Of a DNA stretch of 64,000 nucleotides, positions 30,796 to 56,481 are shown one piece after another. The stretch lies in the NCBI RefSeq assembly GCF_009914755.1, contig NC_060933.1; one strand, 5' to 3'. The DNA is from the human T2T-CHM13v2.0 reference genome, Homo sapiens. The notes beneath the pieces were generated by a model that was not told the origin of the DNA, searched no databases, and worked only from the letters and a program-made list of their open reading frames with translations. The translations under genes were made by a program, and so were the position numbers. Within the stretch, counting starts at the first letter, position 1; each line of letters starts with the position of its first letter.

Positions 30796-31157
30796 TATCC
30801 CTGGAATGTTTGACTAACTGGATCACTAAATAATTTTAATGAATATTCTGCAAATTATTGACCTGGCCTTATCAAAAATGAGGAACCGTCTTAGAAAGAG
30901 TTCTTAAACTCAAACATCTTACAATCTAGTGAGAGAGAAATGGTTAGAAAACATTAAAAAACAACTAAGACATGTTGGAAGAATGAAAGTCATAATTTAT
31001 CATAAGGTTATATCACTTATAATTCATTTTAATGAATTAAAATGAATATAGTCTCATCTAATGAGAGAGACAAAGTGGAATGAGGAATCTAATTATTAAT
31101 TAATTATAATGAGATTATAATCTCATAGCCCAAAGAGAGAGACAAAATTAATAAAGA

Positions 31158-31256
31158 TGCAAAAGAAAAACTAAAATATCTTTATATTTAATCAAGGTGC
31201 AAAAGAAAAACTAAAATATCTTTATATTTAATCAAGGTGCAAAAGAAAAACTAAAA
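31158..31256. repeat. Perfect 40-bp tandem repeat, ~2.5 copies
   Basis: Unit TGCAAAAGAAAAACTAAAATATCTTTATATTTAATCAAGG. Confidence 0.97.
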
Positions 31257-31774
31257 AGTAGTTATAATAACTTTTACAAAGAAGCAAGCAGTTTATAAGG
31301 AAATTTTACATGCATTATCTCATTTAATCATTTAAACCAGTGCTACAGGTGAAGTTATTAGCACAAGTTTATGAGTGGAAAAGTGAAATGAATGAGTTTA
31401 AGTGGTCTGGCTAGGAAACAGCAGAGCTTAGTAAACTCAGCATGAAGAGGAAATGAGAACAACTGCATTCCCAACTTGTTTTGTCACTTACTCATCCTCT
31501 CTTTGGCACTGGATTGATGTGGCCAGGAATCTCATGTGTTCCTGACCCTATAATCAGCCTTTGTCCCACTTCTCCTTTGACAATAGTTTATAAGATGAGA
31601 AAAAGGTTCTTAGCTAGTCTTGTTCATTCTTAAGGTCTAATACTCTTTTTATTACTTTTTTTTCAATATTCCTGTTTAGGTTTTGTGGGTTTTTAGTTTT
31701 TTTTGTCTTCATTTTTACCCCCTGCTTATCCTTTCTTTAATCCTCTCTTCTCTTTTACTTCTAAAGTTGTAAGC

Positions 31775-41441: not shown

Positions 41442-41636
41442 CAGTGCTGTACTGGGTCTGGTTTGGTACTAGATTGCAAGAGCTGAAGTGTTCACCTATC
41501 CCAGCTCCACATTCAGTGGCATGTTGATAGCTTGGTATTGGCCACGGGGGGAGTATTTACACCATGGAAATTGGCCAACACTACAAATCAGGACATTTTT
41601 TCCCCCAAAGATCCAATGTCACAGAGTACTCCACTG
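41442..41636. mobile_element. Arthur1/MER69A-like hAT-Tip100 MITE
   Basis: GGGAGTATTTACACCATGGAAATTGGCCAACACTACAAATCAGG; terminal inverted CAGTG...CACTG. Confidence 0.75.
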
Positions 41637-50277: not shown

Positions 50278-50460
50278 CTGGCAGAGGGATACAAAAGTCA
50301 CAGAACAAATTCCATTTGTAAATTCTGCGTATGGTATATGCATTGGCAGGGAATCCGTATTCTCCTCGTAAATTCTGCATATAGTCTATGTGTCTTGGTG
50401 CTGGGGTCATTGGTGTTTCAATTTAAATGGCTGGGGCAGGAAAGATTCTATCCTGACATG

Positions 50461-50650
50461 GAAGAAGGAAGAAAGGCAGGCAGGCAGGCAGGAAGGAAGG
50501 GAGGGAGGGAGGGAGGGAGGGAGGGAGGGATGAAGGAGGCAAGGAAGGAAGGAAGGGACGAGAAGGAGGGAGGAAGAGAGAGAGAGAGAGGAAAGGAGGA
50601 GGGAAAGAAGAAAGGGAGGCAGGAGGGGAAGAAGAAGGAGGGAGGAAGAA
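50461..50650. repeat. GA-rich low-complexity polypurine tract (GGAA/GGGA/GGCA)n
   Basis: About 190 bp, nearly all purine on the + strand. Confidence 0.95.
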
Positions 50651-51126: not shown

Positions 51127-51287
51127 CAACACTTACGAATAGTAAATAGCATGCACTTTTAAAATGTGATCAACGTGTATTTACATAATAGCCTGTAAGA
51201 GTTCCACTGTCAAGTAAATAATACTGTAGTTGCCCTTAAAAGTCTTTAATCACCTGCAGTATTTGCAAAGTATGTTGTAATGGATTT
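51127..51287 (+). repeat. Left arm of a 161-bp inverted duplication (partner 52690-52850)
   Basis: Manual alignment: 151/161 identical to the reverse complement of 52690-52850, no gaps. Confidence 0.97.
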
Positions 51288-51962
51288 CTGGTTTGTGTTA
51301 GCACTCCACTCTCTTCTCAAATTTGTTCCTTTTCTTCCCTGATTTCAAATACATATATATATTTATGAAAATAATTTTAAATTGGCATTGAAATAAACCA
51401 CACATCTAGGTAGAATGGTCTTGAATGGTTTCACTTCTGTGGAAAGGAAACTTTTAAAGTGAGATGGCAATATCATGCTGATGTTGCACCCATGAAGAGC
51501 ATCTTATACATGAAAACAAGTAAACAAAGAAGAGAGCCGCTGCAAGGTGGGGTGACGGGGCTGTTGATTGTGGGCAGAATATGCTTTGGCGAACTGCAGC
51601 CAATGTTTCCACCCTCTCCCAGGCTGTTCCTATTCTTCCACTGTATCACAGGGATCTGACCCCCACAAACTATGGCCCTAGTCTCTCTTACCAAGTAGTT
51701 TCTGGCTCTTTTAGGGCATGGGGAGTACTGACTGGAGGCTGGAAGGCAGGAAGAAGGTATAAGTCTGATTTCTTCCCTTTTCTCTCGCTCAGGATACATT
51801 CACCAGTGGCTAAGGCACCCCACACCTCTGTCTCACCTTCTAGCCCACCCCACAGTTCTCCATGGTTCCAGAAGCTATCTGTGGTCCAGGCACCTGGGCT
51901 CTAGTCACACAGTTTCCTCCCTCCAGTTGATGCAGGATTTTTCTCAATCCTTTCAACAGACT

Positions 51963-52996
51963 TGAGACTGGGGTGTCCTGTTTACTCGGCCTGGGATGCT
52001 CAATCCCTTGTGGGAGACAGCATGTGAGTGAGCAAGTGTGAGATCTGGCTGGCCACTTTGGGTGCCGGCAGGAGCAGGCTCCATGTGGGCCCCATGGTGG
52101 TACCCAGGTGGGGATGCCTGTGACCTCTGAAGCCCCAGAGGCATGTTACAGTGCTCTCTTAGCTCTGCCATCCAGGGACAGCAGTGTATTATCAGCTCAG
52201 TGGGCCCCTTGCCTCATAGTGTGGGGCAGCTCCCCTCTGCTGGCAAGGGTAAAGGACCAGTGTGACAGCCTTTTTTGGGTACCTGCACTTGGTGGGCCTC
52301 AAGCTCTCATCCAGCATCCGAGAAGAATGAGGTTGCACAGACACTTGAAGGATGGTGAAGGTGGAGAATTTTATTAAGTGATGGAAAAAGGCTCTTGGTG
52401 GAGTGGGGAGCTAGAGAGGGGATGGGATGGGCAGGTAATCTTCCCTTGCAGTCTGGCTGTCTCTGGCCAGTTCTTTCCTGTAGTCAAGCCATCTCTCCAA
52501 AGTTAAGCCATCTTTCCTCTGAAGTCCAGCTGTCCCTCTGAAGTCAAGTCACCAATCTCCAGTCAAGCTGCTTCTCTCCCTCTACCAACTGAGTCTGGGG
52601 TCTTTATAGGCAAAGGATGGGGGGCAGAGAGGGCCATGGGTAGTTTTGGAAAAAGCGACTTTCAATTGGTAAAAAGACATTATTCTTGTAAATCCATTAC
52701 AATATACTTTGCAAATACTGTAGGTAATTAAAGACTTTTAAAGGCAACTACAGTACTATTTACTTGACAGTGGAACTCTTACAGGCTATTATGTAAATAC
52801 ACATTGAGCACATTTTAAAAGTGCATGGTTTTTACTATTCATAAGTGTTGAAAGAACCAATCAAGACAGAGCAGGCAAATAAGGATAGAAGTTCTCGCTT
52901 TGAACTGCAGGTTTTAGGCTTTTCAGCTGGAAGGTTGGGCTTTGTCGGGGACCTGTCCCTGTCTGCCTAGAATTTCTCTGCCTCGTGCCTCTATCA
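51963..52996 (-). mobile_element. ERV1 LTR (LTR27/LTR28/MER52 class) carrying a 165-bp foreign insert; nested in an older ERVL LTR (~51560-53165)
   Basis: Minus-strand start TGATAGAGGCACGAGGCAGAGAAATTCTAGGCAGACAGGGACAGGTCCCC; minus-strand AATAAA ~52370; TG...CA termini. Confidence 0.8.
52690..52850 (-). repeat. Inverted copy of 51127-51287 inserted into the LTR
   Basis: AT-rich block interrupting GC-richer LTR sequence between GACATTATTC and AAAGAACCAATC. Confidence 0.97.
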
Positions 52997-53304
52997 TAGT
53001 CCTCAAGGTCACAGCTTCCTGCAGTTGCTAATGTCAGTGCTACCTCATTTTTCCTCAATTGATCTTCAGCTCTTGTAATCTAGTAACCGATTACCCATAT
53101 TAAATTACTCCTATTGAATTCCCCGGTGTGGTGAGCTTTGTTTCTTAGATGTTCTCTGACTGATAAAACTGTCAAGTGAATGTTCTCTTTTCTGAGAAGA
53201 AGTTGTCCATGGGCTAAACTAGGCACAGTCAGAGATTAAGTGCCTTCTTTCCTATGGCCTGAAAATGTCTCCTGTGACTTTGGATTAAATCTGTTAGAAC
53301 TTAC

Positions 53305-53577: not shown

Positions 53578-53805
53578 CTAGAAAGAACTTTGGGGCATAG
53601 CAAAATTATGAAAATCAGTGAAAAGGTGGAGGGCACTTTGATAAAATGAAGAGTGTGTGCCTTGACTGGAAATATATCATTTTTGTTTTTAAACTAATGA
53701 CTGTATATGAGCCATATAAAACCGAACTGCTGCTTCTTCCATATTCCCAACCTTTCTGTGCCACACTTTTCACTACCATGATCTGCCACATTCTTGCCTT
53801 GGATT

Positions 53806-54409
53806 TGTTGATGAAAAGAGTCAAACTTTGTAAAATATTTGAAGAAATCTATTCTGAGCCAAATATGAGTGACCATGGCCCATGACACACCCCTCAGAAG
53901 ATCCTGAGAACATGTGCCAAAGCTGGTTGGGGTACATCTTGGTTTTCTACATTTTAGGGTGACATGAGCCTTTAATCAAATACATTTAAGAAATACATTT
54001 GTTTGGTCCAGAAAGTGGGACAGCTCAATGTGGGATGTTGGGGGTGCTTCTGGTTATAGGCAAATTTATAAACTAACTGGTTGACACTTGGTTCAATTTA
54101 TCTAAAGACCTAAGGTCAACAGAAAGAAAATGTCTGGGTTAAGATAGGGGATTGTGGAGACCAAAGTTCTTATTTTGCAGATGAAGGCTTCAGGTAGCAA
54201 ACTTTGGAGAGCACAGATTGTAAATGCTTTCTATCAGACTTGAGGTCTGTGTTGGTGTTAATGCCAGGGAGGTATAATGAGGCATGCCAAACCCCACTTC
54301 CTGTCATGGCCTGAACCAGTCTTTCAGCTTAAATTTTAAGAGTGCGCTGGCTGAGGAGGAAGTTTATTCAAATGGTTAGGGTGTCTTCAAATTTTATTTT
54401 TGGCTTACA
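53806..54409 (-). mobile_element. Solo ERV1 LTR, MER4 family
   Basis: TGTTGATGAAAAGAGTCAAACT...CTGAGCCAAATATGAGTGACCATGGCCC...ATTTTATTTTTGGCTTACA; near-TSD GATT/GGTT. Confidence 0.9.
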
Positions 54410-55068
54410 GGTTTTATGGTTTCATGGATCCTACCTCACATCCTGGTCACACCCTTAAGTTCTGTGCTCATTCTCAACCTCACTTATTCTTCATCAATTC
54501 CTGTCCTTCCTACCGTGTAGTGAGAAACAGATGGCATTTGAGAATCAATTATTAGAAATCCATTATTTTGAAAGTTTTCATAGTTAAATTTTTCAATCTT
54601 ATTTTATTAATAATATTAAAACATACTCAACTACTCCATATTTTATTTAATGTATACATCAAATTTCACCATTGCTAAGTAGGGAGAAAGGGGGAGAAGA
54701 GCTAGGCACTGTTTGAAATGTTTTAATTCATTCCATCTCATGCTACCCTTACCCCATAATCTTCCTTTATATGTAATTGACTCTAACTAACAACAGTGCC
54801 TTCAGGAGATGAAGGTTATATCCAGAATAGGCAAGGGATGAGGACAGCCAGGGAAAGTCACTAAAAACAACTATCCCAGGTCATGGTAATTCCTGGAGCT
54901 GAATTATCCTAGCTAAAGGTGCACTGGCCCCCAGACTGCTGGAGCTGGGATGGCAGGCAAATCACTGAATCCATTGTCTTCCATTCTTCCATATTTATTA
55001 AGGATCTGCTCTTCACTAGGCACTACCCTGAATACTGGGAATAGACTGGTGAAAAATATACACTAGAC

Positions 55069-56481
<1,413 letters not shown>

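What the first reader, a model, noticed from the sequence alone, without database searches (positions are those of the whole stretch)
51127..52850. 161-bp templated inverted insertion captured inside an ERV1 LTR
Seen: 52690-52850 is the reverse complement of 51127-51287 (10 mismatches, no gaps, 1.4-kb spacer). It interrupts the LTR with 4 unassigned bases (TTGT), and has no poly-A and no TSD. Inference: this is a template-switch or break-repair (MMBIR/Pol theta-like) scar postdating the LTR, not retrotransposition. The arms could form a long RNA stem (ADAR substrate) or promote inversion of the 1.4-kb spacer.
Basis: partly seen in the sequence, partly recalled or inferred. Interest (0 to 1): 0.7.

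Follow-up and report, generated by a model that had tools for sequence, protein, structure and literature searches.

The report
Old inverted copy-paste scar in LTR
A 161-base piece of ordinary human DNA has a second, back-to-front copy 1.4 kb away inside an old retroviral repeat; it is likely a harmless DNA-repair copying slip millions of years old, of a kind already well catalogued in human genomes.

Summary
52690-52850 is the reverse complement of 51127-51287 (10 mismatches in 161, no gaps), and the 161-mer has only these two hits in the genome. It interrupts a solo ERV1-type LTR (51928-52996, minus sense, TG..CA ends, 4-bp target duplication); 25 of 25 paralogous LTRs examined are uninterrupted here. 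Two details are new. The donor's end shares 6 bases with the empty site (chance 0.3-0.9%), and the 4 'unassigned' bases complete a 6-bp hairpin with the insert's end, so they are likely a fold-back copy (chance 0.7-1.8% strict, 8-21% loose; both tests post hoc). This fits template-switching synthesis in germline repair. It is the known class of local inverted duplications (under 1 kb, within 5 kb; Sudmant 2015; 21 in one genome, Frith and Khan 2018). Pol theta alone fits poorly: its tracts are rarely over 10 bases. The functional ideas lack support: no annotated transcript spans both arms, the insert lies upstream of the LTR's TATA box, and the spacer is not inverted. Arm divergence (5-6%) suggests an age of tens of millions of years. 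No primate genomes, Dfam or editing data were on hand. Real, neatly legible, ordinary.

The parts
51127..51287 (+). Donor (template) arm: unique, 32% GC, non-repeat DNA
   Evidence: no Rfam family at a useful score
51285..51290 (+). Hexamer TTTCTG straddling the donor's end; the same hexamer spans the empty insertion site in paralogous LTRs
   Evidence: chance 0.003 in exact register, 0.009 with 1 base of slack
51928..52996 (-). Solo ERV1-type LTR, 1069 bp with the insert (about 906 without), TG..CA ends
   Evidence: family name not testable (no Dfam)
51924..51927 (+). Left copy of the LTR's 4-bp target-site duplication (CAGT)
   Evidence: 3 of 4 bases match the right copy
52997..53000 (+). 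Right copy of the LTR's 4-bp target-site duplication (TAGT)
52690..52850 (-). Inserted inverted copy of the donor, 151 of 161 identical; base 52850 is shared with the LTR (1-base microhomology)
52686..52689 (+). Four extra junction bases (TTGT), likely a fold-back copy of 52699-52702
52686..52702 (.). Junction hairpin: 6-bp stem (52686-52691 with 52697-52702), 5-base loop; absent at the donor's end
   Evidence: -3 kcal/mol as DNA on either strand; the donor equivalent does not fold
52603..52608 (-). TATA-like box of the LTR, 78 bases past the insert
   Evidence: motif scan; function not tested
52665..52669 (-). CCAAT motif on the TATA side of the insert
52857..52861 (+). Second CCAAT motif (opposite strand), moved 163 bases further from the TATA box by the insert
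52370..52375 (-). AATAAA poly(A)-signal motif of the LTR; with the TATA box it sets the LTR's sense as minus
   Evidence: neither motif occurs on the plus strand of the LTR

Best explanation
A 161-bp stretch of unique DNA has a second, inverted copy 1.4 kb away inside a solo LTR, likely written there long ago by template-switching DNA synthesis at a germline break or stalled fork, and likely neutral. Shown: the direction of copying (paralogous LTRs lack it), a local template, inverted orientation, junctions with 1 and 6 shared bases, loss of at most 1-2 LTR bases, and a hairpin at one junction. Inferred: a 3' end in the LTR left its template, paired with the nearby DNA, was extended by about 160 bases by a processive polymerase (MMBIR/FoSTeS or microhomology-primed SDSA-like), and returned. 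The 6-base match either primed the jump (plus-strand end folding back on resected or lagging-strand DNA) or ended it (minus-strand end re-annealing); the product is the same, so the direction is unresolved. A second, tiny fold-back then replaced 2 junction bases with 4, during end-joining or later as a quasi-palindrome correction.
For: Two genome hits only. 25 of 25 paralogs uninterrupted, 16 of 25 with exactly one base between the flanks. 6-base donor/site match, P 0.003-0.009 against 43,882 local positions. Fold-back tail: 1 of 256 4-mers passes within 20 bases, weighted P 0.007; hairpin confirmed by folding. No poly-A or target duplication. Size and distance fit the published class: under 1 kb, within 5 kb, not typically retrotransposition (PMC4617611); 21 opposite-strand non-tandem duplications among 166 rearrangements in one genome (PMC5829575). 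Arms differ at 8 of 156 non-CpG sites against 12.9% or more for LTR paralogs (Fisher P 0.005 against the closest of 25).
Against: Both junction tests were devised after seeing the sequence; under a looser rule the 4 bases find a template by chance 8-21% of the time. The hexamer is not intact in the product, so its use is inferred. The other junction shares 1 base, which is chance level. The age gap shrinks under controls: P 0.17 using only the LTR flanks and P 0.11 against the closest paralog after matching base composition (0.009 against the median). No ortholog was seen, so the empty site at this locus is inferred from paralogs. The enzyme cannot be read from a scar. Neutrality rests on absence of annotation, not on a test.
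Confidence: 0.68

Rival explanations
1. Capture of a free DNA fragment (for instance an Okazaki-sized or nucleosome-sized piece of the sister chromatid) by end-joining at a break in the LTR, with no template switch.
For: Almost no loss at the site and only 1 shared base at one junction; 161 bp is in the recalled size range of such fragments (recall, no call).
Against: The donor's end falls on a 6-base match to the site (P 0.003-0.009), which ligation of a free piece does not predict; the fold-back tail implies synthesis.
Confidence: 0.12
2. Polymerase theta-mediated end joining made the whole event, the 160-base tract as well as the 4-base tail.
For: Snap-back tail with a 2-base primer is the SD-MMEJ pattern (PMC5728401, passages); the tract is AT-rich (68-70%), as Pol theta insertions are; secondary microhomologies there are longer than primary ones, as in 1 then 6 (PMC7165422, passages).
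Against: The same paper finds primary tracts rarely over 10 bp, templates typically within 30 bp, and distal templates in under 0.1% of repair events. Here one tract is 160 bases from 1.4 kb away.
Confidence: 0.13
3. RNA-templated insertion: a local transcript reverse-transcribed into the site by L1 machinery, or picked up by the retrovirus during reverse transcription.
For: The site is T-rich on the minus strand; rare RNA-templated insertions are reported (17 sites, PMC4617611).
Against: No poly-A, no target duplication; no annotated transcript of the donor; capture before integration cannot explain a donor 1.4 kb from the landing site, and no other LTR copy carries the piece.
Confidence: 0.04
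4. Whatever its origin, the pair now functions: a long RNA stem edited by ADAR, a substrate for inversion of the spacer, or a damper of the LTR promoter.
For: 153-155 of 161 arm bases pair in a fold of the whole span on either strand; the insert separates two CCAAT motifs upstream of the TATA box.
Against: No annotated gene or enhancer overlaps (hub annotation); LTR-driven RNA would lack the inserted arm; mismatches are scattered as chance predicts, with no sign of conversion (longest perfect run 46, P 0.32); spacer not inverted; inversion recurrence tracks long flanking repeats, and 72% of resolved balanced inversions have 200 bp or more (bioRxiv 2021.12.20.472354, passages).
Confidence: 0.06
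5. The arms are the duplicated ends of a staggered-break inversion of the 1.4-kb spacer.
For: Inverted duplicates at both ends of a segment are the mark of such inversions (recall).
Against: The LTR pieces inside and outside the spacer have the same orientation and join within 1 base in paralog coordinates, with TG..CA ends and target duplication in place.
Confidence: 0.01

Closest known systems
Local inverted duplications ('Inverted Dup') of the 1000 Genomes phase 3 SV map (PMC4617611; passages read)
   Same: Duplicated stretch under 1 kb inserted within 5 kb of the other copy, inverted, not retrotransposition; replication-error origin proposed.
   Different: Those are polymorphic and so recent; this one is 6% diverged and likely fixed and old.
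Localized non-tandem duplication, opposite strand (PMC5829575; passages read)
   Same: Same geometry; 21 cases, plus 6 with a deletion at the target, among 166 rearrangements in one genome.
   Different: Those are human-lineage events absent from apes; this one likely predates the ape radiation.
MMBIR-type templated insertions, MMB-TI (PMC8421209; passages read)
   Same: Inverted copy of a nearby template with junction microhomology, found as germline variants, sometimes with several templates.
   Different: That survey looks for templates within 100 bp; here the template is 1.4 kb away and one junction has only 1 shared base.
Pol theta templated insertions and SD-MMEJ snap-back (PMC7165422, PMC5728401; passages read)
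   Same: The 4-base tail with a 2-base primer and 5-base loop fits snap-back synthesis.
   Different: The main tract is far longer and more distant than typical Pol theta tracts, and no new microhomology follows the tail.
Short-range template switches in great apes (PMC7954356; passages read)
   Same: The 2-to-4-base change at the junction makes a perfect small inverted repeat, as these events do.
   Different: Their median copied length is 12 (max 128); a 4-base event is of the small kind that the method often scores as non-significant.

Membership tests
Local inverted duplication (Inverted Dup / opposite-strand non-tandem duplication) | Duplicated stretch under 1 kb, second copy within 5 kb, inverted | tested here: met
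   161 bp, 1402 bp apart, inverted
Local inverted duplication (Inverted Dup / opposite-strand non-tandem duplication) | Source copy retained and sequence between the copies not inverted | tested here: met
   Donor present; LTR pieces collinear
Local inverted duplication (Inverted Dup / opposite-strand non-tandem duplication) | Not a mobile element: low copy, no poly-A, no target duplication | tested here: met
   2 hits; junctions read
Local inverted duplication (Inverted Dup / opposite-strand non-tandem duplication) | Empty allele seen at the same locus in another haplotype or species | not testable with these tools
   No primate or second human genome held; empty site inferred from 25 paralogs
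MMBIR / FoSTeS template switching | Microhomology at the switch points | tested here: inconclusive
   6 bases at one end (P 0.003-0.009, post hoc, overwritten in the product), 1 base at the other
MMBIR / FoSTeS template switching | Origin at a broken or stalled fork | not testable with these tools
   Cannot be read from a fixed scar
Pol theta TINS | Primary tract short (rarely over 10 bp) and template typically within 30 bp | tested here: not met
   160 bases from 1.4 kb; met only by the 4-base tail
Pol theta TINS | Dependence on POLQ | not testable with these tools
   Needs cells
Retrotransposition (L1 TPRT) | Poly-A tail and 7-20 bp target duplication | tested here: not met
ERV1-class solo LTR (host element) | TG..CA ends, 4-bp target duplication, dispersed copies, TATA then poly(A) signal | tested here: met
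   4-bp duplication with at most 1 mismatch in 14 of 18 paralogs with both ends, 5-bp in 1 of 18. That 4 bp points to ERV1 is recalled.
ERV1-class solo LTR (host element) | Match to a named Dfam family | not testable with these tools
   No Dfam on hand; a resemblance to the MER52/LTR1/LTR27/LTR28 group is recall only
ADAR substrate (long RNA duplex) | Both arms in one transcript, with A-to-I sites | not testable with these tools
   Pairing possible; no annotated transcript; insert upstream of the LTR TATA box

The most novel reading that the evidence does not exclude
The junction is a fossil of a two-scale fold-back in the primate germline: a 3' end primed on a 6-base match 1.4 kb back on its own strand, copied about 160 bases, then snapped back on a 2-base primer to add 4 more. 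Solo LTRs, whose paralogs reveal the empty site, would then serve as a genome-wide record of ancient repair scars; and this insert, by splitting the two CCAAT motifs, may have altered the LTR's promoter.
Probability: 0.3. Interest if true: 0.4.

Novelty: new member of a known kind. Interest (0 to 1): 0.2.

Why it matters
Little on its own: it is one old example of a common, catalogued rearrangement in a gene-poor region. Its merit is legibility. Because the target is a repeat with many paralogs, the empty site and the direction of copying can be read without an outgroup, which exposes a microhomology and a fold-back tail. A genome-wide scan of that design could give tract lengths, distances and junction rules for germline template switching over primate time.

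Tried and rejected
Dispersed repeat or part of the LTR: rejected. Reverse direction (LTR to unique DNA): rejected, paralogs lack the piece. Staggered-break inversion: rejected. Known RNA family: one chance-level Rfam match, E 0.99, 17 bits against a cut-off of 55. Gene conversion between the arms: no sign. A longer template for the 4 bases within 2.6 kb: one 8-base match at 53076 on the minus strand, which I take as chance but cannot exclude. Base rate: among 142,531 bases on hand (window plus 25 loci) this was the only non-repeat local duplication of 50 bp or more at 85% within 5 kb; the sample is small and includes the finding, so it gives no rate. Strand or base asymmetry of the mismatches (6 of 7 transitions leave the insert with the A/T base, both CpG changes are in the insert) is too small to interpret. 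Literature on the locus: a search for KRT18P24 listed 7 papers; I read passages of one, where it only labels a GWAS SNP. Three papers recalled as relevant were not held and are not relied on.

Full report
Observation. The inverted pair is real and exactly placed: arms 51127-51287 and 52690-52850, 161 bases, 10 mismatches, no gaps, 1402 bases apart. The other long inverted pairs listed in the window fall on its Alu-like repeats. The 161-mer has two matches in the genome, these two (2 candidates, both scored). The 1.27 kb round the left arm matches only itself and the right arm, so the left arm lies in unique DNA, within the limits of a search that skips very common words.

The host element. 51928-52996 is a dispersed repeat (726 candidates, 40 scored). 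It has TG..CA ends and a 4-bp target duplication with one mismatch; 14 of 18 paralogs with both ends show a 4-bp duplication with at most one mismatch, 1 of 18 a 5-bp one. A TATA-like box (52603-52608) followed by AATAAA (52370-52375) lies on the minus strand and neither on the plus strand. This is a solo LTR in minus sense. That 4 bp points to ERV1, and a resemblance to the MER52/LTR1/LTR27/LTR28 group, are recalled; no Dfam was on hand.

Direction of copying. I aligned the two LTR pieces separately to the 28 paralog loci fetched, which are 25 independent places (3 rows are duplicates). All 25 carry both flanks with 1-4 bases between the alignment ends, and 16 of 25 exactly one base. A junction-spanning search found no other copy with any of the insert (112 candidates, 40 scored). 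So 164 bases stand where paralogs have one: the right arm is the insertion, the left arm its template. Since the LTR pieces inside and outside the spacer are collinear, the spacer is not inverted in this assembly, which also rules out a staggered-break inversion.

Junctions. At 52850 donor and LTR share one base, which is chance level. At the other end the donor stops inside a hexamer (51285-51290) that also spans the empty site in paralogs. Among 43,882 local positions a match of 6 or more occurs at 0.3% in exact register, 0.9% with one base of slack and 2.6% with four. The hexamer is not intact in the product: 2 of its bases are replaced by the 4 extra bases. Those 4 bases are the reverse complement of bases 10-13 from the insert's end and complete a 6-bp stem with a 5-base loop; the donor's end does not fold. 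Only 1 of 256 4-mers passes a strict snap-back test within 20 bases (weighted P 0.007; 0.018 within 50), but 8-21% pass a looser test that allows any local template, and one 8-base match exists 390 bases away. Both tests were designed after seeing the sequence, so they are suggestive. There is no poly-A and no target duplication round the insert.

Mechanism. Shown: local template, inversion, near-zero loss at the site, direction. Inferred: a 3' end in the LTR paired with DNA 1.4 kb away, was extended about 160 bases and returned. If the plus strand was extended, the hexamer primed a long fold-back; if the minus strand, the hexamer ended the tract by re-annealing. The products are the same. A second tiny fold-back rewrote the junction, during end-joining or later. 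A processive template switch (MMBIR, FoSTeS or SDSA-like) fits the main tract best (0.68). Pol theta alone fits less well (0.13): passages of PMC7165422 report primary tracts rarely over 10 bp, templates typically within 30 bp and distal templates in under 0.1% of events, though they also report AT-rich tracts and longer secondary microhomologies, which fit. The tail fits SD-MMEJ snap-back (PMC5728401, passages) or a short-range template switch (PMC7954356, passages). Capture of a free fragment remains possible (0.12).

Age. The arms differ at 10 of 160 sites, 8 of 156 outside CpG (5.1%, 95% interval 2.2-10.1%). The closest of 25 paralogous LTRs differs from this LTR at 12.9% of non-CpG sites (Fisher P 0.005). 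Against this, the test is not significant with only the LTR flanks (21 of 230, P 0.17), and with base composition matched the arms show 5 differences in 106 sites against 9.2 expected from the closest paralog (P 0.11) and 13.3 from the median (P 0.009). Paralog distances also include subfamily differences, and only the best-scored candidates were fetched. The insert must be no older than the LTR's landing, since the template is adjacent host DNA; that it is much younger is moderately supported. By recalled primate divergences (human-macaque about 6%), 5-6% between arms suggests roughly 20-30 million years, with a wide range. Mismatches are scattered as chance predicts (longest perfect run 46, P 0.32).

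Function. If one RNA held both arms they would pair (153-155 of 161 bases), which is trivial for such a repeat. The hub's annotation shows no gene or enhancer over the span. The insert lies 78 bases upstream of the LTR's TATA box, so an RNA from this LTR would hold the donor arm only; read-through from KRT18P24 or the second repeat at about 53805-54410 is possible but unshown. For inversions, passages of bioRxiv 2021.12.20.472354 report that 132 of 183 resolved balanced inversions have flanking repeats of 200 bp or more and that repeat length drives recurrence; 161 bp at 94% is a poor substrate. The insert does move one CCAAT motif 163 bases away from the TATA box; any effect is untested. Rfam gave nothing.

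What is known. Passages of PMC4617611 state that 54% of characterised inversion calls were inverted duplications, nearly all under 1 kb and inserted within 5 kb of the other copy, not typically tied to retrotransposition. PMC5829575 lists 21 opposite-strand non-tandem duplications among 166 rearrangements in one genome (passages and table). PMC8421209 reports such templated insertions as germline variants, about 100 per person at shorter range (passages). This finding meets the testable features of that class. I found no paper on this locus: one search for KRT18P24 listed 7 papers (passages of one read), and six topical searches listed none about it. Supplementary tables that I could not read might list variants here.

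Verdict. A real, old, locally templated inverted insertion with unusually readable junctions; a new member of a known kind, with no evidence of function. Interest 0.2.

Noticed in passing
window 53805-54410: A second dispersed repeat of about 605 bp with TG..CA-like ends, 0.8 kb from the first LTR; many genome matches at 79-82% (3426 candidates). Likely another solo LTR; not among the masked stretches the hub listed.
   Followed up: partly
window 50456-50650: Purine-rich GGAA/GGGA tract about 480 bp left of the donor arm; such tracts can stall forks (recall), but no link to the insertion was tested.
   Followed up: no
window 51127-51287 and 52690-52850: Of 7 transition mismatches, 6 leave the inserted copy with the A/T base, including both CpG sites; the donor keeps its two CpGs. 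Too few to interpret.
   Followed up: partly
window 53064-53085 and 41467-41488: A 22-base inverted match with one mismatch, 11.6 kb apart (E 0.003 in the local blast); the second place lies in a RefSeq enhancer. Could be chance or a smaller templated copy.
   Followed up: no
window 31148-31267: Three tandem copies of a 40-bp AT-rich unit, 83-95% alike.
   Followed up: no
window 55068-56480: KRT18P24 processed pseudogene on the minus strand with its A-tail visible as a T run at about 55068-55082; already annotated.
   Followed up: no
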